A stretch of 64,000 nt of DNA from a virus. Taxonomy: Duplodnaviria > Heunggongvirae > Uroviricota > Caudoviricetes. A model generated the notes under the pieces. That model was given only the letters and a program-made list of their open reading frames with translations. It was not told where the DNA came from and ran no database searches. The translations under genes were made by a program, and so were the position numbers. Shown here piece after piece: positions 3,401-38,914 of this stretch (positions are counted from its first letter, which is position 1; each line of letters starts with the position of its first letter). The stretch lies in IMG/VR virus record IMGVR_UViG_3300029740_000238, one strand, 5' to 3'.

Positions 3401-4734
3401 GTAAAGAAGAGCAGAAGCCAAATATTTATCAAATCCCCAAAAACTCGTTTGATACCGGGTATGTGTTGAACGGACAATTCAAAACTCGAAACTTCGTTGA
3501 AGGTATCATCCTGGCACTACCGTTCTTGGGAATTTTCATTTATGGATGGCATGATTTGGGATGGGATGTACAAAGTACCGTGGCCTATTGCGCAATACTC
3601 TGTGCTGCTGCTTTCCTTGGTGCAGCTCATGGTGTTGGCGGCGATAGCTTGTTTGAGTTTATTCAACGTGTTATCCGTTTCCGGCAAAGTCGCAGAATCT
3701 CAAAATACAATCCTCGTATCAAAACCGAACTTGAACCGGAATATCTGATTCATGACGGGCGGATGCTCCCGAAAGACAAGCTCAAGCAAATGCTTGGCAC
3801 TGTAAAGGGAAAAGTTCTTGGTGAAGAGAACGGTCCTATCAGTTCCGACATTACAGATGAAGAGCTCAAGGTCTTCTACGATGATGACTATGGGTTCCTG
3901 GAAAAACCGGATGCCCTCAAATCTAAAGCAGAACTCCGTGCTGAAGCAAAACAGCGTGCGAAAGAAGAGAAGGAATACATTAACTCTTTGCCCCGTTCTG
4001 AACGCAAGGCTGCCAGAGAAGAAATCAAGCGTAAGCGTGAACAGGAAGAGGCTGAGAAGAAGGCAAAAGAAGCAGAGCGCGAACGCATTATTAACGAAGC
4101 TATTAAGAAGCGTCTGGATAAAGCCGAGCGTGTTAAGACCGCACAGTATTACGAGAAGTTCATGGACCCCGACAATGAGCAGGAAAATGACAAGCCGGAA
4201 GAGAATAACGCTGAACTGAATCCTCAGGCTGTAGAGTTCAAGCCCGTCGCTGTAGGGCCGAGCAATAATGCGGTTCAGGATGATGTCGATATCTTTGACA
4301 GTGAAGAAAGCATCGACACCGATGAAGTAGAAGCGAATGTGGAAGCAGATGCGGATACAGAGCTGTTTGAGGACGGCACTGATACCGATATCCAAGCCCC
4401 GCAGATTGATGATGTAGTCTTTGACGATGAAACGGAAGTACTTGACGTCGATGAGGACTTGGATGACTTGTCGGTTGATATCCAGGATACTCAGTCTGCA
4501 CAGCCCGCAAAGCAGGGCAGGGGACAAGTCGTGAACAGCGATGACGATGCCAGCTTGGATGATGTAGACCTTTTCGATGACAGCACGGTCAGCCGCACAG
4601 AGGAAAGACCTCAGAACGTCAAAACCTCTGGAAAGACGATGGGCTCGCAAAAGCAGCCGCAAACCACACAGAACAACAGCGATATTGATTATATGTCCTT
4701 GAATGACATTTCTATCTTTGATAGTGAGGAGTGA
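3397..4734 (+). CDS. Conjugal-transfer membrane protein (TcpE/PrgI/VirB3-like) with a long acidic low-complexity C-terminal tail
   Basis: ATG at 3397 follows AAAAGGGGGAAG. Two hydrophobic helices sit near the N-terminus. The gene lies immediately upstream of the VirB4-like gene. The C-terminal ~200 aa are rich in Asp and Glu. Confidence 0.6.
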   Translation: MSKEEQKPNIYQIPKNSFDTGYVLNGQFKTRNFVEGIILALPFLGIFIYGWHDLGWDVQSTVAYCAILCAAAFLGAAHGVGGDSLFEFIQRVIRFRQSRRISKYNPRIKTELEPEYLIHDGRMLPKDKLKQMLGTVKGKVLGEENGPISSDITDEELKVFYDDDYGFLEKPDALKSKAELRAEAKQRAKEEKEYINSLPRSERKAAREEIKRKREQEEAEKKAKEAERERIINEAIKKRLDKAERVKTAQYYEKFMDPDNEQENDKPEENNAELNPQAVEFKPVAVGPSNNAVQDDVDIFDSEESIDTDEVEANVEADADTELFEDGTDTDIQAPQIDDVVFDDETEVLDVDEDLDDLSVDIQDTQSAQPAKQGRGQVVNSDDDASLDDVDLFDDSTVSRTEERPQNVKTSGKTMGSQKQPQTTQNNSDIDYMSLNDISIFDSEE

Positions 4735-4739
4735 AGCCT

Positions 4740-7400
4740 ATGTTTCGATTCAAAAATGGCGGAGAAATCCCCCACGGTGTTGTGGAACAGAGTATCGGTA
4801 CAATCCCGCTGACGAAAAAGGAACGCGATGAAATCGCCAAAGAAGAGCGGCGGCGGATGAATCAAAAGCTGGAAGCTCAGAATGAGCGCTATCAAATCAT
4901 TCGAAGCACACAGCGTATCATCCCTATTGAGGATATTTACGGCGGCATTGTTGTGACAAAGGACCACCGATATATCAAAATCATGGAATTTCGCCCTATC
5001 AACTTTGCCTATATGGACGCGGAAACTCAAAACCGTATTATTTCGCTTTTCTATCAAACGTTCAAAGCAACTCCCTGCAATATCCAGTTCAAAACCTTTT
5101 CTCGTAAAGCTGATGTCGAGAATTCAATCGCGACCGTGACGGACTATTACAAAGCAGAAAAGAATCCGAGTCGTAAGCGAATGTTGCAGGCATACATCGG
5201 ATTGCTTCGTAAGACGGCTTTGTCCGTTGGTATTACCCGTCGCTTCTTTGTGGTCGTAGAATTCCAGCGCACTATCAGCAACGATGGTTCTAAATTTGAA
5301 ATGGTTGTGGCCGACTTGAATGCCGTTGCGGCAAACGTCCGCTCTCACATGGAACAGTGTGGTAATATCTTTATTCCTGCACTTGGTAACCCTGACGGAA
5401 ACGAGGACGCAGGTCTACACCAGCTTTTTTACCAGCTCTTGAACCGTAGAAAAAGCGAGACCATCACGTTCAAGCAGCATATGGACCCCATTGTTGACCG
5501 TTATTTTGAAGCCGAAAAGAATGGCGTTAAGACGTCTTTGCAGGCAACGGAACTGATTGCTCCGGACTGGATTGACTTTACGCATCACGATTACATTGTC
5601 ATTGATGGCAAGTTTTATACTTTCGCTTACATTCCCTCGAACGGGTTCAGCCAGCGTGTCTATGCGGGCTGGGTGGCTACGTTCGTAAATGCTGGTGAAG
5701 GCATTGACGTCGATATGTTCTTTGAGCACATGTCCCGTGAAGCTGTCTTCAATAAAATCAGTACACAGCTTCGTCTGAGCCGTGCAAACGCCATGGACAG
5801 TCACGATACTGACTCTGACTATCAGGCGCGTATGGAAAAAATTTCGTCCAGTGAATATATGCTGCGCGGCCTTTCCAGCGGCGAAGAGTTCTATTACCTG
5901 TCAATGCTCATCACTATTGTGGCAGATACAAAGAAGGAACTCGATTATAAGTTCGATGCTTTGAAAAAGCGTATCGAAGGTCAGAGCATGAAGATTCGCC
6001 GTGCGGATTTCATGATGGAAGAATGCTTCGATTCCTGCCTGCTTCCTCTTGCGAAAATCAATAAGGAGCTGGCAAAGAAATCTCATCGCAATCTTCTGAC
6101 TTCGGGTGTTGCATCCTGCTATCCGTTCATCTCGTTTGAAATGCAGGACCCGGGCGGCGTTATGGTCGGGACAAATCATGTCAACAACTCTCTGGTCACC
6201 ATCGATATGTTTGATACCCGCGCTCATGCAAACGCAAACGCCGTTATCTTGGGCTCTTCCGGTTACGGCAAGACTTTCACCGCACAGCTGTTCGCACTAC
6301 GCTTGTCTGAGATGGACACGCAGGTGTTTATCATCTCTCCTCTGAAAGGTTTGGAGGACTACGGCGGCGGTTGTAAGGCAGTCAATGGTCAGTTCGTCTC
6401 CATGGACCCCTCTTCGGACAACAACATCAACATCATGGACATTCGCGCTCCTGACGATGAGGACGCAAAACTGCTGGATGATTATGAGGCTTCCGGCTCC
6501 TTCTTGACCAAAAAGATTCATACGATTCTTTCGTTCCTGCACCTGGTTGTTCGCAATATGACGCAGGAAGAAGAGCAGCTGATTGACGGCTGCCTGTATG
6601 CGACATACGCAAAGTTCGGCATCACCCGTGATAACAACTCTATCTACGATAAAGATGGCAACTATAAGGTGATGCCGCTGCTGGAAGATTTGCAGGAAGA
6701 AATGAGAAAAAACCCTGAACTGCATACCGTCTGCAACATCTTGAATCCGCTAATTAACGGTTCTATGGCTTGCTTCAATCACCACACCAACGTGGACCTT
6801 GACTCCAAGTACATCGTATTTGACTTCAATGGCATGAAAGGCTCTTTGCTTACCATGTCTATGTTCGTGGTTCTGGACTTTGTCTGGACGAAAATCAAAG
6901 AGGACCGTACACAGCGCAAAGCCGTATTTATTGACGAATGCTGGAAATTGATTGGCACTGACTCTAACGAGCAGGCAGCTGAAGACGTTGTAGAAATCTT
7001 CCGTACGATTCGTGCTTATGGCGGTTCCGCTTTTGCTATGACTCAGGATATTTCTCAGTTCTACGAATACAAGGGCGGCAAATACGGCAAGGCAATTATT
7101 GGTAACGCCGATACCAAAATCATCATGCACCTGATTCCGTCCGAAGCAAAAGCCCTTCAGGAAGCCATTCAGCTGACCAGCGTTGAGATGGAAGCGGTAT
7201 CCAGTCTGCCGCGTGGTCAAGGTCTGGTTTGCTCTGCATCCGCAAAACTGTTCGTCGATTTTGTGGCCGATGACTATGAAGCCAAGGAAATCACAACCGA
7301 TGCTAAGTCCTTCTACGAACGCCGCAAGGCTTTGGAAAAGAAAAAGCGGGAAGAAGAAGAGAAGGCGGCGGAAAATACCGTCATTGATGTTGAAATGTGA
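4740..7400 (+). CDS. VirB4/TrsE/TcpF-family conjugative transfer ATPase
   Basis: Walker A GSSGYGKT and Walker B VFIDECWKL are present. The protein is ~880 aa. GAGGAG lies 9 nt upstream of the ATG at 4740. Confidence 0.9.
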   Translation: MFRFKNGGEIPHGVVEQSIGTIPLTKKERDEIAKEERRRMNQKLEAQNERYQIIRSTQRIIPIEDIYGGIVVTKDHRYIKIMEFRPINFAYMDAETQNRIISLFYQTFKATPCNIQFKTFSRKADVENSIATVTDYYKAEKNPSRKRMLQAYIGLLRKTALSVGITRRFFVVVEFQRTISNDGSKFEMVVADLNAVAANVRSHMEQCGNIFIPALGNPDGNEDAGLHQLFYQLLNRRKSETITFKQHMDPIVDRYFEAEKNGVKTSLQATELIAPDWIDFTHHDYIVIDGKFYTFAYIPSNGFSQRVYAGWVATFVNAGEGIDVDMFFEHMSREAVFNKISTQLRLSRANAMDSHDTDSDYQARMEKISSSEYMLRGLSSGEEFYYLSMLITIVADTKKELDYKFDALKKRIEGQSMKIRRADFMMEECFDSCLLPLAKINKELAKKSHRNLLTSGVASCYPFISFEMQDPGGVMVGTNHVNNSLVTIDMFDTRAHANANAVILGSSGYGKTFTAQLFALRLSEMDTQVFIISPLKGLEDYGGGCKAVNGQFVSMDPSSDNNINIMDIRAPDDEDAKLLDDYEASGSFLTKKIHTILSFLHLVVRNMTQEEEQLIDGCLYATYAKFGITRDNNSIYDKDGNYKVMPLLEDLQEEMRKNPELHTVCNILNPLINGSMACFNHHTNVDLDSKYIVFDFNGMKGSLLTMSMFVVLDFVWTKIKEDRTQRKAVFIDECWKLIGTDSNEQAAEDVVEIFRTIRAYGGSAFAMTQDISQFYEYKGGKYGKAIIGNADTKIIMHLIPSEAKALQEAIQLTSVEMEAVSSLPRGQGLVCSASAKLFVDFVADDYEAKEITTDAKSFYERRKALEKKKREEEEKAAENTVIDVEM

Positions 7401-21430: not shown

Positions 21431-22699
21431 ATGGCGAGCGAACGAGCGATACTTCACTGTGACATGAACTCTTTTTACGCAAGCTGCGAGGCGGCTTATA
21501 ACCCAAAGCTGCAGGGAAAACCAATTGCGGTATGTGGTGACCCGGAAAGGCGAAATGGCATCGTGTTGACTGCCTCATATCCGGCCAAACGGATGGGCGT
21601 GAAAACCGGGATGGCTTTGTGGGAAGCACAGCAGCATTGCAGAGACATCATCTTTGTTCCGGCTCATTATGACCTTTATACTAGGTACAGTAAATACACC
21701 AGAGAAATCTTCTTGCGTTTCACAGACCAGGTCGAACCGTTTGGCTTAGATGAAGCATGGCTTGATTGTACCGCAAGCCAGTCACTTTTTGGGACAGGGG
21801 AAAAGATAGCCAAGAAAATCTCTGATACCGTGAAGGATGAGCTCGGCATCACCTGTTCTATCGGCGTGAGCTGGAATAAAGTCTTTGCAAAGCTGGGGTC
21901 CGACTATAAGAAACCGGATGCCACCACCATCATATCAAGGTCAAACTGGAAGGATATCGTATTCCCGCTGCCTGCCACGGACCTTTTGTATGTTGGGTCC
22001 AGAACGGGGAAAAAGCTGTCAAACTACTGTATCCATACAATCGGTGACTTGGCGACCACCAATCCAAGCTTTCTGAAAGAGAAACTCGGAAAAATCGGTC
22101 CCATGCTATGGGAATTTGCCAACGGGCTTGATACGGGAACGGTAGCAAAATACGAGGACAGGGAGGCTCAAGCACCCATCAAGAGCGTTGGGAACAGTTG
22201 GACCACGCCAAGAGACCTCCTAACTGATGGGGACGTCTGGATAGTGCTTTATCTTCTTTCGGAGAGTGTTGCGGCCCGCCTCCGGGAGAATCATTTCCGA
22301 TGTCGAGGAGTAGAAGTGAGTCTCCGAGATTCCAGCCTTTTCAGCTTTGAACGGCAAGTCAAGCTGCCTCAGCCAACGATGCAGGAAAAGGATATTGCAG
22401 AGGCAGCGTACCAGCTGTACAAGAAGAATTATCGGTGGAGTGAGCATCTTCGCTCAGTCGGTGTGCGTGCCATTGACCTGCGTCCGGATACCGAACCAAA
22501 CCAGATATCTTTTGAGTATAGTGCCGAAAAGCAAGAGGAGACTGAACGACTCGAATCCGCAATCGATGGGATACGAAACCGATTCGGATACTACTCTGTG
22601 CAAAGGGCTGTTATGTACAAGGACCGCTTTCTCTCGCATTGTGATGCAAAGGGTGACCATACGATTCACCCACATGGGTATTTGCAAGGGAGCGTCTAA
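21431..22699 (+). CDS. Y-family DNA polymerase (DinB/UmuC/ImpB family)
   Basis: The N-terminus DMNSFYASCE ... LDEAWLD is diagnostic. RBS GGGAGG. Confidence 0.9.
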   Translation: MASERAILHCDMNSFYASCEAAYNPKLQGKPIAVCGDPERRNGIVLTASYPAKRMGVKTGMALWEAQQHCRDIIFVPAHYDLYTRYSKYTREIFLRFTDQVEPFGLDEAWLDCTASQSLFGTGEKIAKKISDTVKDELGITCSIGVSWNKVFAKLGSDYKKPDATTIISRSNWKDIVFPLPATDLLYVGSRTGKKLSNYCIHTIGDLATTNPSFLKEKLGKIGPMLWEFANGLDTGTVAKYEDREAQAPIKSVGNSWTTPRDLLTDGDVWIVLYLLSESVAARLRENHFRCRGVEVSLRDSSLFSFERQVKLPQPTMQEKDIAEAAYQLYKKNYRWSEHLRSVGVRAIDLRPDTEPNQISFEYSAEKQEETERLESAIDGIRNRFGYYSVQRAVMYKDRFLSHCDAKGDHTIHPHGYLQGSV

Positions 22700-31198: not shown

Positions 31199-32842
31199 AT
31201 GGTATATGTGATTGGAATTGTGGCAGCCCTGATTATTCTCTTTGGATTTCTCTGCTACAAGAAAGCTCCGCCCACGGAGGCTATCGTTGTAACTGGCTTT
31301 GGCCTGTCTAAGCCTAAAGTGGTTTGCGGAAAGGGTACATTTGTTCTGCCCGTTCTTCAACGGGCTGACCGACTGAATATGCGCCTTTTGAAAATCGATG
31401 TCAAGACTCCTGAAACAGGTGTTAAGACGAAGAACGGCGTAAGTCTCTGGATTGACTCTGTTGTCACGATTCAAGTCTACAGCGAAAACTCTACCGTTCT
31501 GGATGAAGAAGTGAAGGCATCCGGTCTGAAAGACGCCAAGGCGTACATCATGTCCCGCCAGCAGGCAGCCATCTCGAACTTTCTCGGCATGAACGAGCAG
31601 GGCATCAATGAGAAAGTTAATGACGTTCTGCAGGGCAATTTGCGTGAGATTGTCTCTGACATGACCGTTGACCAAATTCTGACGAACCGCAAGCAGATGG
31701 CTGTGAGCGTTATCGAGAATGCTCGCCCCGACCTTGCTAAGATGGGACTTGAGGTCGTGACTTTTAATGTCCAGGACATCAGGGATGCAGTGGATGTTCA
31801 AGGCCACAATCACGGCGTTATCGAAGCTATCGGCATCGAACAGGAAGAGCTCGTAAAGAAACAGGCTGAAATTGCCCGTGCTCAGGCTGCCCGTGATGTA
31901 GCCTGCGCGAAGGCCGATGCTGAGATGGCTGCAAATGCCAAGGAAGTTGAAGCGCAGACTGCGATTGCAAAACGCAACAATGAATTGCAGCTCGCCAAGG
32001 CAAAGCTGAAAGCTGAAGCTGATAAAGCTGCGGCTGACGCAGATGCTGCCGGTCAGATTCAGATGAATCTCCGCGCCAAAGAAATCAAAGAAGCGGAAGC
32101 GGATGCTGAAATCGCCAAGCAGAAGAAAATGGTAGACCTTGCCGCACAGGAAGCCGAGGTCCAGCAACGCAAACTGGATGCGGAAGTCCGCAAACAGGCA
32201 GATGCTGACCTGTACCGCTGCCAGAAAGAGGCAGAAGCCAAGAAATATGAGGCGGAACGTGCAGCTGAGGCACAGAAGTTCTCTAAGCAGCAGGAAGCAG
32301 AAGGCATTGAGCTTGTCGGTAAGGCAGAAGCTGAAGCGATTCGTCAGAAAGGCTTGGCTGAAGCGGAAGCCATGAAACAGAAAGCAGAGGCATATAAGCA
32401 GTATAACGATGCGGCTGTGGCTGAAATGCTCATCAAGGTTCTTCCTGACATTGCCAAGAGCGTGGCTCAGCCTTTGTCCAGCATTGATAAGGTTTCTATC
32501 ATTGGCGGTGATGCCTCCGGCGTATCCGGCGTTTCCGGGAACGTTCCTATCCTGATGGCTCAAACCATGCAGACGGTGAAAGAAGCGACCGGCATTGACA
32601 TGGGCGAAATTGTCCGTGCCAACAGCATCCAGGCAAAGACAGACCGCAACATCAACATTATGACTCAATGTGAACAGCCTGAGAATAACAAAGAGAAAGG
32701 AGGTGCCAAGGCAATGGAACGCGTAGAAGGCGGCTATCTGATTCATGAGAAGAATCTCAACGGTGAGGAAGTCACTCATTTTCGACCGGATGTGACCGAA
32801 GAAGAGAAGGCTATCATGAAAGACAAAAAGGCCAAAGATTAA
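31199..32842 (+). CDS. Flotillin-like SPFH/band-7 protein with an Ala/Glu/Lys-rich coiled-coil region
   Basis: N-terminal TM helix, SPFH core and long EA-repeat coiled coil, as in FloT/YuaG. Confidence 0.8.
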   Translation: MVYVIGIVAALIILFGFLCYKKAPPTEAIVVTGFGLSKPKVVCGKGTFVLPVLQRADRLNMRLLKIDVKTPETGVKTKNGVSLWIDSVVTIQVYSENSTVLDEEVKASGLKDAKAYIMSRQQAAISNFLGMNEQGINEKVNDVLQGNLREIVSDMTVDQILTNRKQMAVSVIENARPDLAKMGLEVVTFNVQDIRDAVDVQGHNHGVIEAIGIEQEELVKKQAEIARAQAARDVACAKADAEMAANAKEVEAQTAIAKRNNELQLAKAKLKAEADKAAADADAAGQIQMNLRAKEIKEAEADAEIAKQKKMVDLAAQEAEVQQRKLDAEVRKQADADLYRCQKEAEAKKYEAERAAEAQKFSKQQEAEGIELVGKAEAEAIRQKGLAEAEAMKQKAEAYKQYNDAAVAEMLIKVLPDIAKSVAQPLSSIDKVSIIGGDASGVSGVSGNVPILMAQTMQTVKEATGIDMGEIVRANSIQAKTDRNINIMTQCEQPENNKEKGGAKAMERVEGGYLIHEKNLNGEEVTHFRPDVTEEEKAIMKDKKAKD

Positions 32843-32974
32843 AGACAACGAATGAAAAGAGGGTGACTCGAAAGAGCCATCCTTTTTTCTGTTGTGACGC
32901 AAACGAAAAGTTCATGGTAGCCATCCAATTTGGGTGACTGTCTTTTTTGCATGTTAAGGCTTTGTTGCTGAATT

Positions 32975-32992
32975 GTGCGAATTGAAGATAAT
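32975..32992 (+). promoter_or_regulatory. Recurrent promoter-like motif GTGCGAATTGAAGATAAT
   Basis: Family member about 55 nt upstream of the 33047 gene. Confidence 0.4.
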
Positions 32993-33046
32993 TAAAAACA
33001 AAAGATGCTTTGTATCAAATCGATTGAAACCGAAGAGGTGAAGTTA

Positions 33047-33439
33047 ATGCTCGGCGTGAGTTTGATTATCATAGCAGCGGCTATAGTCTACATGGTCGAA
33101 ACCTATATCAGCACCTATTACACTATCGAATACATGCACGGAACATCGCTGTTCCTTATCCTCCTTGCGAAATATGGCACGCCAGTCCTGTTCCTGCTGC
33201 TCTGCGCCTACATTGCATATCGCAAATTCCTCAAAAAGCAGAAAGCTGCGGCTTCTGCTGCATCTGAACGGCCTACAAGCAAAGAAGAGCTGTATACCAA
33301 CAAAATTCAAACGGCATTGACACCTCCCACGATTGAAATCGTGGGATTCCTGGGCGGCGCGGCAAGGTTCATCGCCAAACCGTGTCTGAAACAGCGAGTT
33401 ATGTGGTTTCCCATCATGCACTACGGGTGTAGCGCATGA
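33047..33439 (+). CDS. Small membrane protein (possible flotillin-associated NfeD-like partner)
   Basis: 130 aa with two to three TM helices. RBS GAAGAGGTGAAG. The family call rests on position alone. Confidence 0.45.
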   Translation: MLGVSLIIIAAAIVYMVETYISTYYTIEYMHGTSLFLILLAKYGTPVLFLLLCAYIAYRKFLKKQKAAASAASERPTSKEELYTNKIQTALTPPTIEIVGFLGGAARFIAKPCLKQRVMWFPIMHYGCSA

Positions 33440-33449
33440 CGAGCATCCA

Positions 33450-33577
33450 GCCAAAATGGTTGACCAACATACTTGTCTGTATTCCCAGTTCTTTTAAGTG
33501 CATCCTCCGAAGGGAGTTTCACCTCTTGCGAGGCAGCTCTTTAATGAGGGAGTGTCGAACCCCCAGAAAGTTATTGT
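33450..33577 (-). ncRNA. Candidate TnpB guide (omega/right-end RNA) region at the IS right end
   Basis: By analogy, TnpB guide RNAs derive from the 3' end of tnpB plus the IS right end. A hairpin-rich segment lies directly downstream of the tnpB stop. Confidence 0.3.
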
Positions 33578-35314
33578 TTAGAATCCAATGCTTGCAGGAA
33601 GAGAACTTCCAACCGCCTGCAAGCGATGCTTTGTATTTTCGTGCATTTCTAAAAATGCAGGAAAAGCTGAATTAAGGGTTTCCATATTGTACTGCAAGGA
33701 TTCGATATCTATATGTTCAAGCAGGAAGGCAGAATATAAGTCACGCTGGACTACTTCTCCGCTGTGGAGACGAGCCATTCGCTCGGATAGTTTCTTTTTG
33801 GTATAACTTTCATCTGTATGGTCAAATTGCGAGGCTTTTGTTTCAAAGGTGCTGACTTTGATAACGCTGCCGCCATAACGATTGGCTTTTTTGTTCAGGA
33901 TGGAAATAAACATTGCGGGGGCGCAGCGGCTTAGAGACTTTCCGAACCGTTTTTTCGTATGTGCTCTGCCAGTTTTAGCGTTGATTTTTGTTTCTTTGCT
34001 GCGCTTCTGCAAGGCTTTGTAGTTCATATCTTCAACCACAAACTCGTTACCATATGCCAACAATTCGTTGGCGAGAATGTTGTGCTCCATTTTGCGAATG
34101 TCAGCTAACTTACGGTACAGGTTACGAAGCTTTGCACGCAAACGATAATACCTTTTGCTGTATTTCCACTTGCGCTTTTGTTTTTGTCCATGCTGTCGCT
34201 TCAACCTTTTGATTGTACCATCCGAATTATAGTATTTCGGATTCGTAGCGCGGCGCGAACGGTCCATTGCACGAAGCGTACAAGCGATTTCGTTCACGAG
34301 GCTTTTTGCCTGCGCTCTTGCAGACGGAGCGAGTACGCGAAGGTCGCAAACATCCTTACCGCTAAAGGCAATGGTTTGTGTACCGATATCAAGACCTATG
34401 CGCCCTTGATTGACAGGATGCTTCATCACACCGTTACTGTCGCATTTGGTGGGAGGATAGCCTTCTAAGATGAATTGTGCATAATACTTCCACTTGGTCT
34501 TAACCCACTTACGAGTAATGCGGCAGTATTTCACTCCACATTTGAGAGCTTCTTGCTGATATTTTCCTGTCTGAGTTTTAGGATTACGCAACACAACAGG
34601 AAATTCATGCTTTCCGTACACAATGCGCAGGTTGCCTTCTCCGATAGTGGGCTTAATTTTTGCGATAGCGGCAGCAATTTCAGCTTCCATTTGTGGTTTT
34701 ACCTCATCAGGAAGAACGACTTTCTTATCGTCTTTAGGGTCAGGCCGCCCGTACATATCATCGTATCGCTTCTCGACGGCTTTTTGCGCCTTGCGCTTAG
34801 CCGACTCAATATTGCTTGTAGTGAGGTTTGCCGGGCGAAGCACGATACCGGTGAAGTTGTTTTTTCCGGAGATAGCTGCTAAATCATCTAACCTTTTGTA
34901 GTGAACCTCTTTTCCTTTGCTAAAGAAGAAAGTGCTCCATGCTTTCCAAACATCAGAGGCAACTGCCTGTGCTATATGGGAGTTTATGGCATAGTGCTTC
35001 GCGTACGGCACAACCAACTTATGAAAAGCATCTTCAGAAAAACGATATTCTTTAAGCATCTTTTCGCGTTGCTTAAAGAGTGTTTTTTGCTCATCGCTGT
35101 CGGGAGTTGCTTTTGCAATAGCTGCCATCAACTCACGATACTTGCGCGTCTTGCGCAATTGATGCCACATTTTTGTAGTCGCACTCACAAGCTGATTGTA
35201 GATGACACCACACTTCTTGAACTCCTTATACAGATAGTCTTGCTCGTTGAGACTTATATCAAGAGGCAATGTCAATACAAATGATGGCGTGCTATTCTTG
35301 CTCCCGAAAGCCAT
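33578..35314 (-). CDS. tnpB: TnpB (IS605 OrfB family, RuvC-like RNA-guided nuclease homolog)
   Basis: GLDIG (RuvC-I), VVEDMNYKALQKR (RuvC-II) and C-terminal QRDLYSAFLL (RuvC-III-like) motifs. 578 aa. Confidence 0.75.
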   Translation of the reverse strand: MAFGSKNSTPSFVLTLPLDISLNEQDYLYKEFKKCGVIYNQLVSATTKMWHQLRKTRKYRELMAAIAKATPDSDEQKTLFKQREKMLKEYRFSEDAFHKLVVPYAKHYAINSHIAQAVASDVWKAWSTFFFSKGKEVHYKRLDDLAAISGKNNFTGIVLRPANLTTSNIESAKRKAQKAVEKRYDDMYGRPDPKDDKKVVLPDEVKPQMEAEIAAAIAKIKPTIGEGNLRIVYGKHEFPVVLRNPKTQTGKYQQEALKCGVKYCRITRKWVKTKWKYYAQFILEGYPPTKCDSNGVMKHPVNQGRIGLDIGTQTIAFSGKDVCDLRVLAPSARAQAKSLVNEIACTLRAMDRSRRATNPKYYNSDGTIKRLKRQHGQKQKRKWKYSKRYYRLRAKLRNLYRKLADIRKMEHNILANELLAYGNEFVVEDMNYKALQKRSKETKINAKTGRAHTKKRFGKSLSRCAPAMFISILNKKANRYGGSVIKVSTFETKASQFDHTDESYTKKKLSERMARLHSGEVVQRDLYSAFLLEHIDIESLQYNMETLNSAFPAFLEMHENTKHRLQAVGSSLPASIGF

Positions 35315-35318
35315 AAAG

Positions 35319-35720
35319 TTACCCTCCTCTCTTTTTTTGCTGTTCTACATAGTGTTGAATCGTAGCGGTAGACACATCTCCGGCAGTGCTTACAAAATAG
35401 TTGCGTGTCCACATTTGCATTTCGATGTCGGGAAAAAATTCTTTCTTTAATTGCCTGCCGGTGGTTCCTTTAATAATTTTCATGATTTCTGCAGCACTTA
35501 ATGTAGGCGGAGCATTCACGAAAAGATGACAATGGTCGATATGACATTCCATTGCCAGTATCACAATGTCGTTTTGCTCACAAATTTGAGTTACAAGTTC
35601 CTTGAAACGAGCTTCAAACCCATCCACCAGAAATAATTTTCTCCGATAGCGTGGGCAAAACACAAAGTGATAATTTATCATAGAAACGGTTGTTTTTGTG
35701 CGTCTGTAGTTTCTTTTCAT
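35319..35720 (-). CDS. tnpA: IS200/IS605 TnpA (Y1 HUH transposase)
   Basis: HIDHCHLFV (HuH) motif and a catalytic Tyr in RNYFVSTAG. Confidence 0.85.
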   Translation of the reverse strand: MKRNYRRTKTTVSMINYHFVFCPRYRRKLFLVDGFEARFKELVTQICEQNDIVILAMECHIDHCHLFVNAPPTLSAAEIMKIIKGTTGRQLKKEFFPDIEMQMWTRNYFVSTAGDVSTATIQHYVEQQKKRGG

Positions 35721-35920
35721 GTATCTATTTTATCACAATTCAGACAATTTTATGTTACAGATATATGAACTTTATATCACAACATCGTCACATTACAATT
35801 ATATTGGCAAATACGAAGAAAACCATTATTGTCGGCCTATCATCCCACGGTTGAAACCGTGGGCTTTCCCGGCCTTCATTTTGTAAAGACAAAAAGCGTC
35901 TTCTCAGAGCAGGCTGACCA

Positions 35921-36227
35921 AATGCTGTATCAGGTACGGCGCTTCGGGCAAAAAATGGCCGTTGCCTACAGCATGACCCAGGATAGCAAGACGTCCGGGG
36001 AACAAGCCAAGTGCCTAACGTTATTGGAATCCGCAGAACGTATCTTCTATGACCGACTGGATGACGCGATTCGCTCGGCTTCAATGTTTGATGAAACGGA
36101 ATACAAGGCTTTCTGTCTGGTCGGAAACGGCACGGTCATCAGCTACCAGTGCCGGTCGATGGATGAGGCGGTCGATATGGTCGCCGCCTTGTACAATGGC
36201 AGAAAAACAGAAGCAGCGCAAGCATAA
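35921..36227 (+). CDS. Hypothetical protein, possibly 5'-truncated by the IS insertion
   Basis: ORF 35829..36227 begins inside the IS left end. The first plausible internal start is at 35921. Confidence 0.3.
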
Positions 36228-36247
36228 CCATCCTGCAAAAATATATG

Positions 36248-36284
36248 CCGTTCATCTTTTTGGGTGGACGGCTTTTTGTTTTGT
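36248..36284 (+). terminator. Rho-independent terminator (GGGTGGACGGCTTTTTGTTTTG family)
   Basis: GCCGTTCATC ... GGGTGGACGGC stem plus T-run. Confidence 0.55.
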
Positions 36285-36316
36285 GAATACAGCGATTCAG
36301 TGGCGAAGCGAGCCGA

Positions 36317-36373
36317 TTTTACCAGCAGTTTGATATTCTGCGGCATGATTTCCAGCAGTTTGATACTCTGTGG
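36317..36373. repeat. Tandem copies of TTT(A)CCAGCAGTTTGATAYTCTGYGG
   Basis: Copies at 36317-36343 and 36349-36373. A third copy is at 42521-42547. Confidence 0.7.
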
Positions 36374-36386
36374 GCAGTTGCACAGC

Positions 36387-36404
36387 CGTGCAAATTGCAT
36401 ACAA
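36387..36404 (+). promoter_or_regulatory. Recurrent promoter-like motif variant GTGCAAATTGCATACAAT
   Basis: Family member downstream of the tandem repeats. Confidence 0.4.
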
Positions 36405-36748
36405 TGGGAATTGGAAAACAAAAAGAGCGATGCAAGGCTGTATTTACAAAAAATCCTGTGAGCGTTTTTTAGTATTCATTAAACGACACGAAATTCAACA
36501 AAACGCGAAGAGAATACAAGAAAAGGTGAATGAAATCCGGCTGAGGCGGATAAAACTTGCGCTGAGTGGTTTGAAGTCCGGACAATGGGACAGCTAAAGT
36601 GGTAGAATGAAACAAGGAATACCTAAAATCAGATTTAACCGAAAAAACAAAAACCATGAATGAATAATTGGTTGCTAAAAAGTAACCGCTCGCTTTTATA
36701 CCCAAACCAACAAATGACACAAATCTGTTTAGAAAGGATAGGCACAAA

Positions 36749-38914
36749 ATGGCAAGAAGGAAAACAAACGACTTGGAAAATCAGATGTCGCTGATGGACA
36801 TGATGGCATCGGAAAGCCCCGAATATACCGAAGAAGGCCCGGAAGAACTCTTGGACCCCGGCGAGGACATGGAGGACAGTGAAGGGCAGACGGATAAGCC
36901 CTTCAAACTCGTGGCGAACAAGACCACGAAGGCAAAGGCGAGCATCTCCACGCAGGCGTTGAGTGTTGTGAAGGCGGTATATGCTGATACGGTAGAAACG
37001 AATTGGGAAGAGTTGTTTGACGGGTTCGACAGACTCTATGCTATCACTTTTTCGTCCGGTATCGAGTTCGTGAATAAGGTCATCAACAAGTTCTCGTATG
37101 CGGAAGTCGTGTTCGGCTGCGAGAAAATCATCGCCAACGACATTGCTGCCATCATGTCGGTGCAAATCGACAGCGTGCAGCGGCTCGCTAAGTCTAAGTC
37201 GGCAGGGAACCTTGCGAACCGCCTCGATGACGGGTCTTTGCAGCTGTATGTATCGCGAGACACGAAATCGCACGAGAAAATCTTTATCTTGGAGAGCGCT
37301 GACCATAAGCGTGTCCGAGTCATCACCGGCAGTGCGAATATGTCGGCATCGGCGTTTTGCGGCATTCAGCGAGAGAATATCGTCTGCTTCGATGACGAGG
37401 CGGCATTTTCGCATTACAAGGTTCTGTTCGAGACCTTCAAGGAGACCTGCTCCGACAATGTCTCCTATAAGGCAGTCGTGAACACCATGAACCAGGAAGA
37501 TTATCTGAAAGAGAACATCAAAGAAGTACCCGTCTTTCAGTCTATTGAAAAGCAGAAGCTTGTCTTTCTGGAACAGGCACAGCCTGAGGATGAGGTCGAA
37601 TACGAGATAGTTGCCGATGTCAAGAAAATGCAGGAACTCGTCAAGCCAATCATGCCTAAGATGCCGGTACAGGCGAATCGTATTGTAGTGGCAGCGGAAC
37701 CGATGCGCGTTTTCGGGAAACGATATACCGAGGTTCGGCGTGTGGCAGCTGAGGCAGTTAAGCAGCTCCCGAAATTACATATCGACTATGATGCCGGGAC
37801 CATGACCTTCAACGACGAGAATATCGACCTCAATCCGAATCTCAGCGAGGTGGCAAAGAACATCAAGAGCATCCAGAAGTTCTTCTCAGGCATGGACTAC
37901 TTTTACGGCGATATCGAGCAGGCCAAGAAGGACTACTTCAAATACATGACCTGGTATCTGGCTACTCCGTTCATGGCGTATCTGCGGTATTTCGCATCGA
38001 GGAACAACTACGATACGAAGCTGTTCCCGATGTACGGCGTTATATACGGCGACTCAAACGGCGGCAAGACGACATTTATAAAATTTCTTGTCAAACTCAT
38101 GTGCGGTGAGACCGTTAAGATGAACACGACGGAGGATTTCACAGCCACAAGAATCGACGGCCTCAAACGAGTTTGTGAGGGACTGCCGCTGAACATCGAC
38201 GACCTCGCCAAGACCCAGTTTCAGAACCATTCAGAACGGGTAATCAAGAACGATGAATGGGGTATCTCGGACAGGCTTGTGAACTATCCTGCTGTATCTA
38301 TCACATCGAATAAAATTACCTCGCTGACAAAAGACCTCTCGAAACGCGCTATCATCTGTCGAATTGGTGCTAAAATCGACAACGAGCGCGGTGCCAAGAA
38401 CTCGAAGCGTGTGAATGAGAGTATGTCGGAGCTGACAACCGCGTTCTATGGCGAATATGTCCGCCGAATGCTTGTTTGCATCGATGAGATGACGACGGAA
38501 ATGCGTGAAAATGCGAATGGCAAGGAATACTTCCCGGATATCTTCCACGCTTCGTCTAGCGTCATTGCAGATATCTTCGAGGCATGCGGAATCGATTTGC
38601 CGGACTATGTGCGTATCCTGTACTATAACGACTATATGGGTGATGAGAGCATTGGTCGTGCTGCAATTGAGAAAATCGAACTGGCATGGCAGGCTGACCC
38701 GAGCAAGTTCCGGGTCGATAAGAAGCAGAACAGGCTCATTTACTCCTATCCGCCGGATGGACCGTGGTACGAACTGAAATACATTGCAGATGAGCTGCCG
38801 AACTCCCTCGAAGCAGAGATTTCTGGCGGCAACCAGCTTATCATGAACTACGAGCAGGCACAGGAATTGTTCGGCATCAAGTTTCGGCGCTGGCTGGGCA
38901 TCTTTAACCTCTAA
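36749..38914 (+). CDS. Large protein with an N-terminal PLD/HKD-like nuclease motif and a C-terminal P-loop NTPase (VirE/primase-C-terminal-like)
   Basis: SHEKIFILE ... ITGSANMS resembles an HxK ... GSxN motif. Walker A YGDSNGGKTTF and Walker B LPLNIDDL. Confidence 0.55.
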   Translation: MARRKTNDLENQMSLMDMMASESPEYTEEGPEELLDPGEDMEDSEGQTDKPFKLVANKTTKAKASISTQALSVVKAVYADTVETNWEELFDGFDRLYAITFSSGIEFVNKVINKFSYAEVVFGCEKIIANDIAAIMSVQIDSVQRLAKSKSAGNLANRLDDGSLQLYVSRDTKSHEKIFILESADHKRVRVITGSANMSASAFCGIQRENIVCFDDEAAFSHYKVLFETFKETCSDNVSYKAVVNTMNQEDYLKENIKEVPVFQSIEKQKLVFLEQAQPEDEVEYEIVADVKKMQELVKPIMPKMPVQANRIVVAAEPMRVFGKRYTEVRRVAAEAVKQLPKLHIDYDAGTMTFNDENIDLNPNLSEVAKNIKSIQKFFSGMDYFYGDIEQAKKDYFKYMTWYLATPFMAYLRYFASRNNYDTKLFPMYGVIYGDSNGGKTTFIKFLVKLMCGETVKMNTTEDFTATRIDGLKRVCEGLPLNIDDLAKTQFQNHSERVIKNDEWGISDRLVNYPAVSITSNKITSLTKDLSKRAIICRIGAKIDNERGAKNSKRVNESMSELTTAFYGEYVRRMLVCIDEMTTEMRENANGKEYFPDIFHASSSVIADIFEACGIDLPDYVRILYYNDYMGDESIGRAAIEKIELAWQADPSKFRVDKKQNRLIYSYPPDGPWYELKYIADELPNSLEAEISGGNQLIMNYEQAQELFGIKFRRWLGIFNL

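What the first reader, a model, noticed from the sequence alone, without database searches (positions are those of the whole stretch)
33450..35875. Intact IS200/IS605 unit with TnpB and a candidate guide-RNA region
tnpA (HUH/Y1) and tnpB are both intact, with a perfect subterminal hairpin at 35844-35863 upstream of tnpA. The 128 bp beyond the tnpB stop (33450-33577) is hairpin-rich and is the expected source of the TnpB omega/right-end RNA. The TnpB here appears to lack the usual CxxC zinc-finger pair before its RuvC-III-like motif (QRDLYSAFLL), which is atypical. The IS appears to have inserted between a flotillin-associated membrane gene and a now N-terminally ambiguous gene (35829-36227).
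Basis: partly seen in the sequence, partly recalled or inferred. Interest (0 to 1): 0.5.

Follow-up and report, generated by a model that had tools for sequence, protein, structure and literature searches.

The report
Phage-borne IS608-like element, zinc-finger-less TnpB
This is an intact 2,566-bp IS200/IS605-type jumping gene that has landed inside a gene of a large gut phage-like genome; it is an ordinary kind of element, but its RNA-guided nuclease (TnpB) belongs to a large, barely annotated branch that has lost the usual zinc finger and uses a long guide-RNA scaffold lying entirely after the gene.

Summary

**Boundaries.** The element spans 33317-35882 on the minus strand, not 33450-35875.
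- 13 empty sites match the joined flanks exactly.
- At least 16 independent insertions of close relatives all lie 3' of TTAC or TTAT and end in ...GTCAA.
- There is no target duplication.

**End architecture.** It copies IS608: TTAC, 19 nt ending in AAAG, then the left hairpin; GAAT, the right hairpin, then 9 nt ending in TCAA.

**Insertion site.** The IS sits inside one conserved ~267-aa membrane-protein gene, not between two genes.

**TnpB.** The 578-aa protein has a TnpB/Cas12 fold and a conserved D309/E428/D525 triad. Both CxxC pairs are missing across the whole family, which has more than 500 clusters at 50% identity. It scores below every curated TnpB threshold.

**Guide RNA.** The 261 nt after the stop codon, not 128, form a conserved structured RNA. 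A covarying 5-bp pseudoknot joins the first hairpin loop to the bases just before the guide, as in ISDra2 omega RNA.

**Selection.** tnpA and tnpB both show dN/dS of about 0.1.

**Verdict.** This is a new member of a known kind. Loss of the zinc finger in TnpB branches is already reported. RNA-guided cleavage with a TTAC TAM is inferred, not shown.

The parts
33317..35882 (-). Whole IS, 2,566 bp. The top (active) strand is the minus strand. There are no terminal inverted repeats and no target duplication.
   Evidence: Thirteen empty sites join 33316 directly to 35883. L036-L038 match the joined flanks 120/120. Ten IMG/VR loci show contiguous alignments that break exactly at 33316 and 35883. 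Copies at other sites lose similarity exactly at these ends.
35883..35886 (-). Target and left cleavage tetranucleotide TTAC. It lies in the flank, not in the IS, and is the inferred TAM for TnpB.
   Evidence: Of 16 distinct left flanks of close relatives, 13 end in TTAC and 3 in TTAT. The position 19 nt 5' of the hairpin foot matches IS608 (PMC3201880).
35721..35882 (-). Left end. It contains the hairpin at 35844-35863 and the guide tetranucleotide AAAG (35864-35867) directly 5' of the hairpin.
   Evidence: AAAG is the IS608 left guide sequence (PMC3201880).
35319..35720 (-). tnpA, a 133-aa Y1 HUH transposase.
   Evidence: Pfam Y1_Tnp at E=3.1e-33 and NCBIfam transpos_IS200 at 127 bits against a cutoff of 55. 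dN/dS is 0.07-0.09.
33578..35314 (-). tnpB-like gene, 578 aa. The RuvC residues are D309 (34388-34390), E428 (34031-34033) and D525 (33740-33742). There is no zinc finger. An insertion of about 70 aa (roughly residues 163-235) is specific to this subfamily.
   Evidence: The AF2 model has pLDDT 90.1. The best Foldseek hit is ISFba1 TnpB 8iaz at E=8e-12. Motif alignments are. dN/dS is 0.07-0.12. Scores fall below all curated cutoffs.
33317..33577 (-). Right end and candidate omega-RNA scaffold, 261 nt between the tnpB stop and the IS end. It may start up to about 100 nt earlier, inside the ORF.
   Evidence: Element positions 2201-2566 (window 33317-33682) are 86-100% invariant per 50-nt block among six copies that are 83-87% identical overall. 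The fold z-score is -4.55. RNAalifold predicts 70 pairs, 11 with compensatory changes. Rfam has no match.
33548..33564 (-). First hairpin after the stop codon (GGGG-loop-TCCC). Loop bases GACAC (33552-33556) form the 5' arm of the pseudoknot.
33504..33533 (-). Hairpin CCTC-GCAA-GAGG, the motif GTGAAAC (conserved family-wide as GTGAAA followed by C or G), and hairpin CTCC-CTTC-GGAG.
   Evidence: The pair at columns 52/59 changes U-A to C-G in 4 sequences.
33410..33443 (-). A 15-bp hairpin that carries most of the compensatory changes.
   Evidence: columns 145-178: pairs 150/173, 152/171, 153/170, 154/169, 157/166 and 159/164 change on both sides.
33326..33349 (-). Right-end hairpin (33326-33345) with the guide tetranucleotide GAAT (33346-33349) directly 5' of it on the top strand.
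   Evidence: Distant relatives carry GAAC together with a TCAG end, so the fourth positions covary.
33317..33323 (-). GTGTCAA. GTGTC (33319-33323) is the 3' arm of the pseudoknot. TCAA (33317-33320) is the right cleavage site and the last bases of the IS.
33301..33316 (-). Predicted guide of this copy (TGCCGTTTGAATTTTG), read through from the right end into the flank.
   Evidence: This is inferred from how characterised TnpB elements work. The only match in the window is this site itself, preceded by TCAA rather than TTAC. Empty alleles carrying TTAC plus this sequence exist in 13 fetched loci.
33005..33316 (+). 5' part (104 codons) of the interrupted host gene, a predicted membrane protein next to flotillin.
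35883..36227 (+). Continuation of the same host gene, in frame with the 5' part. From about 36117 the sequence departs from intact homologues because 2-3.3 kb present in relatives is missing here.

Best explanation
The feature is an intact, probably still mobile IS200/IS605-family insertion sequence with IS608-type ends, at window 33317-35882 on the minus strand. It sits in a large gut phage-like replicon.

**Shown here**
- It inserted 3' of a TTAC, without duplication, into a conserved ~267-aa membrane-protein gene downstream of a flotillin gene.

**Transposition (inferred from IS608)**
- The Y1 transposase TnpA binds the two subterminal hairpins on the single-stranded top strand.
- It finds its cleavage sites by pairing TTAC with AAAG at the left end and TCAA with GAAT at the right end.
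- It excises a single-stranded circle and pastes it 3' of another TTAC.

**RNA-guided cleavage (inferred from characterised TnpB)**
- The tnpB transcript continues through the 261-nt right end into the flank.
- The structured scaffold of about 240-260 nt is bound by the 578-aa TnpB, and the next ~16-20 nt (TGCCGTTTGAATTTTG...) act as the guide.
- The complex should cut DNA carrying TTAC followed by that sequence. That is the empty donor site, or the IS-free allele of a co-resident genome. Repair would then restore or spread the IS.
- The occupied site is protected because TCAA replaces TTAC.

**How the TnpB differs from characterised ones**
- It has no zinc finger in the TNB domain.
- It is about 170 aa longer.
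- Its RNA scaffold lies almost wholly downstream of the stop codon.
For: **Ends and target**
- Exact ends and absence of duplication.
- TTAC/TTAT target at 16 of 16 distinct sites.
- About 20 different right flanks among relatives at 78% identity or more.
- IS608 spacing and guide tetranucleotides: with PMC3201880.

**Proteins**
- TnpA domain.
- Purifying selection on both genes, dN/dS 0.07-0.12.
- Many metagenome contigs of about 2.5 kb, as expected for a repeated element that assemblers collapse.
- TnpB/Cas12 fold: pLDDT 90.1; top PDB hits are TnpB, Cas12f, Cas12m, Fanzor2 and TranC.
- D309 is invariant, and E428 and D525 are at least 90% conserved. They align to the catalytic D/E/D of RdCas12n and ISDra2 TnpB.

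**RNA**
- The right end is more conserved than the coding sequence.
- Structure: z=-4.55; 11 compensatory pairs.
- Pseudoknot next to the guide: 13 distinct loop/tail combinations with 62 of 65 positions paired, and 0 of 100,000 permutations as good. Paired cells are 97.4% against 78.8±2.5% in shuffles, the covariation score is 0.526 against 0.159 (0 of 500 shuffles), and slid controls give 5-49%.
- The geometry mirrors the ISDra2 omega-RNA pseudoknot, where -5 to -3 pair with -103 to -105 (PMC10097598).

**Natural targets**
- IS-free alleles that carry the predicted TAM plus target exist in related viral contigs.
Against: - No RNA data exist. The transcript, its 5' end and its processing are all inferred.
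- No nuclease or TAM assay exists for any member of this zinc-finger-less branch that I could find.
- The protein fails every curated TnpB threshold: NF040570 scores 72.7 against 100 bits, and Pfam OrfB_IS605 scores 17.6 against 30.5.
- This particular copy sits at the same site in at least 10 metagenomes at 99.2-100% identity. This copy may therefore be inherited rather than recently mobile.
- The covarying structures could in principle act in single-stranded DNA rather than in RNA.
- The distance from the right hairpin to the cleavage site is 9 nt, against 10 nt in IS608.
Confidence: 0.8

Rival explanations
1. This is the reader's version: an IS spanning about 33450-35875, with a 128-nt right end, inserted in the spacer between a membrane-protein gene and a separate downstream gene.
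For: ORF calling gives two separate ORFs, 33005-33439 and 35829-36227. Gene callers in public assemblies also call two short genes of 130 and 101 aa.
Against: - A second hairpin lies at 33326-33345.
- Other copies and 13 empty sites place the ends at 33317 and 35882.
- Uninterrupted 267-268-aa homologues read straight across the junction ...NKIQTA|VKTKSV....
Confidence: 0.02
2. The TnpB-like protein is not an RNA-guided nuclease. Having lost the zinc finger, it might act as a nuclease-dead RNA-guided repressor (like TldR) or as a protein-only accessory factor of transposition.
For: The zinc finger is absent. Scores are below the curated family thresholds. No biochemical work on this branch was found.
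Against: - The catalytic D-E-D triad is conserved family-wide and aligns to the active residues of solved enzymes.
- The gene remains linked to tnpA and to mobile ends at many sites. TldRs, by contrast, are immobile and catalytically dead.
- A guide-adjacent pseudoknot is conserved.
- Selection is strongly purifying.
- PMC10691335 notes that zinc fingers are lost in some large TnpB branches and takes conserved catalytic-site rearrangements in several branches to mean those enzymes remain active.
Confidence: 0.08
3. The conserved, covarying structure after tnpB works only as single-stranded DNA. It would be an extended right end that presents the TCAA cleavage site to TnpA, not a guide-RNA scaffold.
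For: IS200/IS605 transposition uses folded single-stranded ends. The pseudoknot's 3' arm overlaps the TCAA cleavage site. Covariation cannot tell DNA from RNA.
Against: - IS608 transpososome assembly needs only about 45-56 nt of the right end (PMC3201880). No role is known there for a partner about 230 nt away.
- A pseudoknot at -7 to -3 relative to the guide is the hallmark of TnpB and Cas12 guide RNAs (PMC10097598).
- G-U/G-T wobble is tolerated at the fifth pseudoknot pair (3 U-G cells). That fits RNA, though only weakly.
Confidence: 0.08

Closest known systems
IS608 of Helicobacter pylori (IS200/IS605 family, tnpA plus tnpB)
   Same: - Gene order is left end, tnpA, tnpB, right end on one strand.
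- It inserts 3' of TTAC without duplication.
- TTAC lies 19 nt 5' of the left hairpin foot, and AAAG sits directly 5' of that hairpin.
- The right end terminates in TCAA a few nt 3' of the right hairpin (PMC3201880).
- GAAT 5' of the right hairpin also matches IS608, as I recall it; this is from memory and is not in the text I read.
   Different: - The DNA shows no detectable similarity beyond tnpA.
- The right hairpin-to-end distance is 9 nt, not 10.
- The right end is 261 nt long.
- IS608 TnpB belongs to the 'typical' clade of 300-450 aa (PMC10691335), whereas this one is 578 aa and has no zinc finger.
- The host here is a phage-like replicon of gut Clostridia-type bacteria.
ISDra2 TnpB and its omega RNA (PDB 8h1j, 8exa, 8bf8)
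   Same: - Both have the WED/REC/RuvC/TNB fold, with Foldseek E-values of 1.8e-9 to 1e-5.
- The catalytic D/E/D residues align.
- In both, the guide RNA is read from the right end into the flank, with a pseudoknot immediately 5' of the guide.
   Different: - Sequence identity is about 13%.
- ISDra2 has a CCCC zinc finger (C331, C334, C351, C354), which is absent here.
- The ISDra2 scaffold is 116 nt and, as I recall, overlaps the 3' end of tnpB. Here the pseudoknot partner lies 22-26 nt after the stop codon, which gives a scaffold of about 240 nt downstream of the ORF.
- The TAM is TTGAT in ISDra2, against an inferred TTAC here.
OrfA/OrfB pairs of Clostridium phage c-st (CST172/CST171), Geobacillus virus E3 (GP156/GP155), C. 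difficile phages phiCD211 and phiCDIF1296T, C. botulinum plasmids and pXO1-20-like Bacillus plasmid genes
   Same: - They belong to the same zinc-finger-less protein family at 35-40% identity over about 85% of the length.
- The gene sits next to an IS200-type tnpA.
- They share the RNA motifs and the covarying pseudoknot.
- They occur on phages and plasmids.
   Different: - They are shorter (about 480-495 aa) and lack the ~70-aa insertion.
- Their right ends are shorter (about 160-210 nt) and finish in TCAG, with GAAC as the guide tetranucleotide.
- They are annotated only as 'transposase', 'putative IS transposase (OrfB)' or 'hypothetical protein'.
TnpB clade RIIIr-4 of Altae-Tran et al. 2023 (PMC10691335)
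   Same: It is a large TnpB clade reported to lack the C4 zinc finger and to be over-represented in viruses.
   Different: RIIIr-4 is defined by replacement of the RuvC-III aspartate with histidine. Here the aspartate (D525, in QRDLYS) is kept in at least 90% of the family. The paper's tree and supplements were not available, so I could not determine which named branch this family belongs to.

Membership tests
IS200/IS605 insertion-sequence family | Encodes a Y1 (HUH) single-strand transposase TnpA. | tested here: met
   Pfam Y1_Tnp at 114.9 bits (cutoff 23). NF033573 at 127 bits (cutoff 55).
IS200/IS605 insertion-sequence family | Subterminal hairpins at both ends, with no terminal inverted repeats. 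| tested here: met
   Hairpins lie at 35844-35863 and 33326-33345 in direct, not inverted, orientation. Zero matches are expected by chance.
IS200/IS605 insertion-sequence family | Insertion 3' of a specific short sequence, without target-site duplication. | tested here: met
   Thirteen empty sites equal the joined flanks exactly. Sixteen of 16 left flanks end in TTAC or TTAT.
IS200/IS605 insertion-sequence family | Cleavage sites specified by guide tetranucleotides 5' of each hairpin (the IS608 rule). | tested here: met
   TTAC with AAAG, and TCAA with GAAT, sit at the IS608 positions (PMC3201880). Relatives switch to TCAG with GAAC. This is sequence evidence only.
IS200/IS605 insertion-sequence family | Transposition through a single-stranded circular intermediate. 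| not testable with these tools
   This needs an excision and integration assay.
TnpB (OMEGA RNA-guided endonuclease) | Passes the curated family HMM thresholds. | tested here: not met
   NF040570 scores 72.7 against 100 bits, PF01385 17.6 against 30.5, and PF07282 14.3 against 26.3. Across 56 family members, 49 hit NF040570 at E≤0.001 (best E=4e-28). Only 9 hit PF01385 and 1 hits PF07282.
TnpB (OMEGA RNA-guided endonuclease) | Split RuvC (RNase H) fold with a catalytic D-E-D triad. | tested here: met
   The AF2 model (pLDDT 90.1) matches TnpB and Cas12 structures at E-values down to 8e-12. D309, E428 and D525 are conserved and align to the catalytic residues.
TnpB (OMEGA RNA-guided endonuclease) | CxxC...CxxC zinc finger in the TNB domain between RuvC-II and RuvC-III. 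This is typical but not universal. | tested here: not met
   There are no cysteine pairs. The family consensus is KASQYNH...LSxRW...QRDLYSAFL, and it aligns opposite the cysteines of 9j09 and 8bf8.
TnpB (OMEGA RNA-guided endonuclease) | Guide RNA derived from the 3' region and right end, with a structured scaffold and a pseudoknot next to the guide. | tested here: inconclusive
   Conservation, compensatory helices and a covarying pseudoknot all support it. Expression and binding of the RNA were not observed.
TnpB (OMEGA RNA-guided endonuclease) | TAM-dependent, RNA-guided DNA cleavage. | not testable with these tools
   This needs biochemistry or an interference assay.
TnpB clade RIIIr-4 (PMC10691335) | RuvC-III aspartate replaced by histidine. 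| tested here: not met
   D525 is kept in at least 90% of sequences.
TnpB clade RIIIr-4 (PMC10691335) | Lacks the C4 zinc finger. | tested here: met
TldR (TnpB-like nuclease-dead repressors) | Inactivated RuvC site and loss of the transposon context. | tested here: not met
   The catalytic triad is intact. The gene lies inside a mobile IS with tnpA and both ends.

The most novel reading that the evidence does not exclude
This zinc-finger-less, long-scaffold TnpB branch could be a phage- and plasmid-adapted lineage whose main role is non-restorative homing. When two related phages co-infect a cell, the IS-encoded nuclease would cut the IS-free allele, which exists in nature at this very site. 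That would drive the IS, and possibly linked phage DNA, into the competitor genome. The same branch may also have produced a small CRISPR-associated type V effector: the ~495-aa relatives in L105-L108 are followed by arrays of three or four 32-nt repeats. Such an enzyme would work without zinc and might have distinct biochemical properties.
Probability: 0.2. Interest if true: 0.6.

Novelty: new member of a known kind. Interest (0 to 1): 0.38.

Why it matters
- **For annotation.** The family has 565 clusters at 50% identity with E≤1e-30 and 238 IMG/VR contigs. It is almost invisible to Pfam and falls below NCBI's TnpB cutoff, so public records call it 'hypothetical protein' or 'transposase'. 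A dedicated profile and an RNA model would recover thousands of RNA-guided nuclease loci.
- **For mechanism.** This is a natural TnpB lineage that dispenses with the TNB zinc finger while keeping the catalytic triad and the guide-adjacent pseudoknot. It gives a direct test of what the zinc finger is for, which PMC10691335 calls unclear.
- **For biology.** Occupied and empty alleles of the same site coexist in one phage lineage. That makes it a convenient natural system for testing TnpB-driven homing between co-infecting genomes.
- **Overall.** None of this makes the element itself unusual. It is a standard IS with standard logic.

Tried and rejected
- **Rfam.** A permissive scan of 32800-36400 gave only a chance miRNA hit and no known omega-RNA or RAGATH family.
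- **Promoters and terminators.** The scan found no more than shuffled sequence does, and nothing useful on the minus strand.
- **GTDB species representatives.** This found one locus only, a Clostridiales MAG copy with a truncated right end, so it was little help for boundaries.
- **DNA searches.** The plasmid search with the whole IS matched only tnpA at about 65% identity. Megablast of the neighbouring 15 kb against GenBank phages found nothing.
- **Occupied junction in IMG/VR.** The search returned no hit. The empty junction returned 10 hits.
- **Membership of RIIIr-4.** I considered and rejected it, because the RuvC-III aspartate is kept. The paper's supplements were not available for naming the branch.
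- **Frame-shift explanation for the missing zinc finger.** I rejected it. The ORF is continuous, the trait holds in all 56 aligned relatives, and dN/dS is about 0.1.
- **Covariance model of the whole 261-nt scaffold.** I used RNAalifold plus an explicit pair count instead.
Full report
**1. What is at the coordinates**

Two adjacent minus-strand ORFs fill most of 33578-35720.
- The 133-aa ORF (35319-35720) is a clear IS200-type Y1 transposase. Pfam Y1_Tnp gives E=3e-33, and NCBIfam transpos_IS200 gives 127 bits against a cutoff of 55.
- The 578-aa ORF (33578-35314) hits TnpB models only weakly, always below the curated cutoffs: NF040570 72.7 against 100 bits, PF01385 17.6 against 30.5, PF07282 14.3 against 26.3.
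Such a pattern is not expected by chance in the window.

**2. Exact boundaries and target**

On the minus (top) strand the left flank reads ...GTCTTTAC. The element then begins AAAATGAAGGCCGGGAAAG, followed by the hairpin. At the other end the hairpin is followed by AGGTGTCAA, and then the flank TGCCGTTT....
- Copies that are 83-87% identical but sit at other genomic sites lose similarity exactly at these two points.
- Among close relatives, 16 distinct left flanks end in TTAC (13) or TTAT (3). About 20 different right flanks follow ...GTCAA.
- Three metagenome contigs match the joined flanks 120/120.
- Ten IMG/VR viral contigs contain the 31-nt empty junction. They align to the window up to 33316 and resume at 35883 with no gap in their own sequence.

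The IS is therefore 33317-35882, 2,566 bp, with no target duplication. Many metagenome contigs of about 2.5 kb carry this protein, which is what an assembler produces for a repeated element.

**3. IS608-type ends**
- TTAC lies 19 nt 5' of the left hairpin foot.
- The four bases directly 5' of that hairpin are AAAG.
- The element ends in TCAA, 9 nt 3' of the right hairpin.

These are the IS608 values: C_L is TTAC at 19 nt, G_L is AAAG, and C_R is TCAA at 10 nt (PMC3201880). The four bases 5' of the right hairpin are GAAT, which I recall as the IS608 G_R. Distant relatives end in TCAG and have GAAC at that position, so the fourth bases covary.

**4. Where it landed**

Deleting 33317-35882 fuses 104 codons of ORF 33005... 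in frame to 35883....
- Homologues of 267-268 aa, one cluster with 1,370 members, read ...YTNKIQTA-VKTKSVFSEQ... straight across the junction.
The apparent 3' end of the first ORF and the TTG start of the second both lie inside the IS ends.
- From about 36117 the window also lacks 2-3.3 kb that relatives carry, namely the rest of this gene plus a VWA gene.
- One contig (L036) has this deletion but no IS. Either the deletion came first or the IS was later excised precisely.

**5. Host replicon**

The empty-site contigs are IMG/VR viral genomes of 68-222 kb.
- The window encodes PHROG matches to a terminase large subunit, a DNA polymerase (E=3e-82), helicases and a methyltransferase.
- It has no close relative among GenBank phages.
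- The same insertion, with identical flanks at 99.2-100% identity, is present in at least 10 gut metagenomes.
- Several of the empty-site phage contigs carry copies of the IS family at other positions.

The insertion is thus polymorphic within one phage-like lineage.

**6. The TnpB-like protein**

The family is large. There are 2,163 representatives of 50%-identity clusters at E≤1e-3, of which 565 are at E≤1e-30. Most are 480-570 aa.

In a 56-sequence alignment:
- D309 (GxDxG) is invariant.
- E428 (vExmN) and D525 (QRDLYSAF) are at least 90% conserved.
- There is no conserved cysteine pair anywhere.

A profile of this alignment against the PDB aligns:
- GiDiG with GVDLG;
- EkmN with EDLN;
- ASQynH with SSQTCSEC (RdCas12n) and SSQLCHDC (ISDra2);
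- vqRDlYSA with MDRDLNAA and THDRDENAA.

The catalytic triad is therefore canonical, and both CxxC motifs have been replaced.

An AlphaFold model built on the alignment is confident (pLDDT 90.1, pTM 0.80). Its best PDB matches are ISFba1 TnpB (E=8e-12, target TM 0.72), Cas12m2, AsCas12f, ISDra2 TnpB, Cas12p, Fanzor2 and TranC, at 10-15% identity.

The 578-aa subfamily has an extra ~70-aa helical insertion at about residues 163-235. Both genes evolve under strong purifying selection, with dN/dS of 0.07-0.12 at dS of 0.3-2.

**7. How the family is known**

Annotated relatives at 35-40% identity sit next to IS200-type tnpA genes. They occur in Clostridium phage c-st ('putative IS transposase (OrfB)'), Geobacillus virus E3, C. 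difficile phages, C. botulinum plasmids and 98 Bacillus plasmid records. Their labels are 'hypothetical protein' or 'transposase'.

Only 9 of 56 members reach E≤1e-3 on Pfam OrfB_IS605, and only 1 does on the TNB domain. Forty-nine of 56 hit NF040570 at E≤0.001; the window protein scores 72.7 against a 100-bit cutoff, and the best member E-value is 4e-28.

Altae-Tran et al. [quoted passage not shown] They also state that the major clade RIIIr-4 lacks it, but RIIIr-4 has the RuvC-III aspartate changed to histidine, which is not the case here. I could not name the branch because the supplements are not held.

Zinc-finger loss is therefore documented at survey level. I found no experimental work on such an enzyme.

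**8. The candidate guide RNA**
- Element positions 2201-2566 (window 33317-33682) are 86-100% invariant per 50-nt block among six copies whose coding regions are 52-94% invariant per block.
- As RNA, the region folds far better than shuffles do (z=-4.55).
- RNAalifold on 17 distinct right ends predicts 70 pairs, 11 with compensatory double changes. These concentrate in a 15-bp hairpin (window 33410-33443), in the CCTC/GAGG hairpin and in the CCA/TGG hairpin.

Across relatives down to 32% protein identity the same order recurs:
- a hairpin just after the stop whose loop contains GAnnn (CGAC, TGAC or TGAA types);
- a hairpin of variable length;
- the motif GTGAAA followed by C or G;
- a short hairpin;
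- a variable middle section;
- the right-end hairpin and the GTCAA or TCAG terminus.

The five loop bases (window GACAC, 33552-33556) are complementary to the five bases just before the terminal AA (GTGTC, 33319-33323). The pair changes in step across subfamilies: GACGT/ACGTC, GACGC/GCGTC, GAAAC/GTTTC, GAACC/GGTTC, GATAC/GTATC, GAATT/GATTC and GGCTC/GAGTC.
- The loop columns were fixed by a sequence alignment made without reference to the 3' end.
- Thirteen distinct combinations give 62 of 65 paired positions. Permuting partners gives 47.5±2.9, and none of 100,000 permutations reaches 62.
- The pair-count tool gives 97.4% paired cells against 78.8±2.5% in shuffles, and a covariation score of 0.526 against 0.159 (0 of 500). 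Slid controls give 5-49%.

In ISDra2 omega RNA, nucleotides -5 to -3 pair with -103 to -105 to form a pseudoknot. That 'guide-PK-stem' arrangement is described as conserved in all Cas12 guide RNAs (PMC10097598).

Here the equivalent pairing is -7 to -3 with about -240 to -236. The scaffold would then be about 240 nt and lie almost entirely downstream of the stop codon. Rfam has no model for it.

**9. Mechanism**

The anatomy above is shown. The following steps are inferred from IS608 and from characterised TnpB elements:
- TnpA excises and inserts the top strand as single-stranded DNA at TTAC.
- The tnpB transcript is read through into the flank and trimmed to scaffold plus guide.
- TnpB with this RNA cuts TTAC followed by TGCCGTTTGAATTTTG..., which is the empty site.

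In the window that 16-mer occurs once, preceded by TCAA rather than TTAC, so the occupied allele should be immune. Empty alleles with the predicted TAM and target exist in related viral contigs. A role in homing between co-resident genomes is therefore possible. A 2026 review discusses that idea in theory (PMC13565253). It is untested here.

**10. Verdict**

This is a correctly recognised, ordinary kind of element whose boundaries and context needed correcting.

The part worth a specialist's attention is the protein-RNA pair. It is a very large, poorly annotated, phage- and plasmid-rich TnpB lineage that keeps the catalytic triad and the guide-adjacent pseudoknot, has no zinc finger, and uses a long scaffold downstream of the ORF.

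I rate it a new member of a known kind, with interest of about 0.4.

Noticed in passing
L105-L108 (IMG/VR contigs 3300045988_078977, 7000000460_000083, 3300045988_119110, 3300045988_080233), about 230 nt after the TnpB-like stop codon: Relatives of about 495 aa from the same zinc-finger-less family (34-35% identity) are followed by short CRISPR-like arrays. Each has 3-4 copies of a 32-nt repeat (GTTGYGGTTTACATRTGTGYGTAAGTTGCCAG) spaced 55-70 nt apart, instead of an IS right end. This may be a small type V (Cas12-like) offshoot of this branch in gut phages.
   Followed up: partly
window ~36117 (and 36117-36748): Every related contig that lacks the IS matches the window up to 36117. It then either diverges or carries an extra 2-3.3 kb holding the rest of the 267-aa gene and a 564-aa VWA-domain gene. 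The window and L036 lack this segment, so the interrupted gene had a second lesion. The next gene (36749-38914, 721 aa) carries PLD-like, RE_NgoFVII and Aq_aa27 signatures and is followed by a Mor-like regulator.
   Followed up: partly
whole window: The window looks like part of a large uncultivated gut phage or phage-plasmid. It has PHROG matches to a terminase large subunit (4731-7400), HNH endonucleases, a DNA polymerase (21431-22699), helicases and a methyltransferase. Its IS-free relatives are IMG/VR viral contigs of 68-222 kb, and nothing similar is in GenBank phages. A flotillin gene (31199-32842) on such a replicon is unusual.
   Followed up: partly
L046/L098, L056/L078, L072/L094, L079/L104, L076/L090, L075/L091 (pairs on the same IMG/VR contigs): Single viral contigs carry two copies of this IS family from different subfamilies, for example 96% and 65% identity to the window TnpB. 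Several lineages of the element therefore coexist in one phage genome.
   Followed up: no
L025:3637-3666: A second right-end-like hairpin and terminus (TCCCACGATTTCAATCGTGGGAGAAGTCAA) lies 168 nt downstream of the right end of that IS copy. It may be a solo right end, a guide-RNA remnant or a miniature derivative.
   Followed up: no
L001 (Clostridiales bacterium MAG HRGM_Genome_2451), about 165 nt after the tnpB stop codon: The only copy found among GTDB species representatives loses similarity about 95 nt before the right end. It lacks the right hairpin, so it is probably immobilised.
   Followed up: no
L040-L045: A 71%-identical relative has its tnpB split into 165-aa and 414-aa ORFs, apparently by a frameshift. 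It sits at a fixed site in many samples and looks like a decaying copy.
   Followed up: no
L005, L006 and L014, upstream of the flotillin gene: Some strains of the same replicon carry a canonical 369-aa TnpB, with HTH_OrfB_IS605, OrfB_IS605 and the zinc-ribbon TNB domain, near the flotillin gene. The window lineage does not have it there. Two very different TnpB types thus share this genome family.
   Followed up: no
window 33579-33635 (last ~55 nt of the tnpB ORF): An inverted repeat (GCTTGCAGG...CCTGCAAGC) lies inside the 3' end of tnpB, in a stretch that is 90-100% invariant at the nucleotide level. A 71% relative has GCTTGAA...TTCAAGC at the same place, with amino-acid changes on both sides. 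It could be an extra 5' stem of the guide RNA or a processing site.
   Followed up: no
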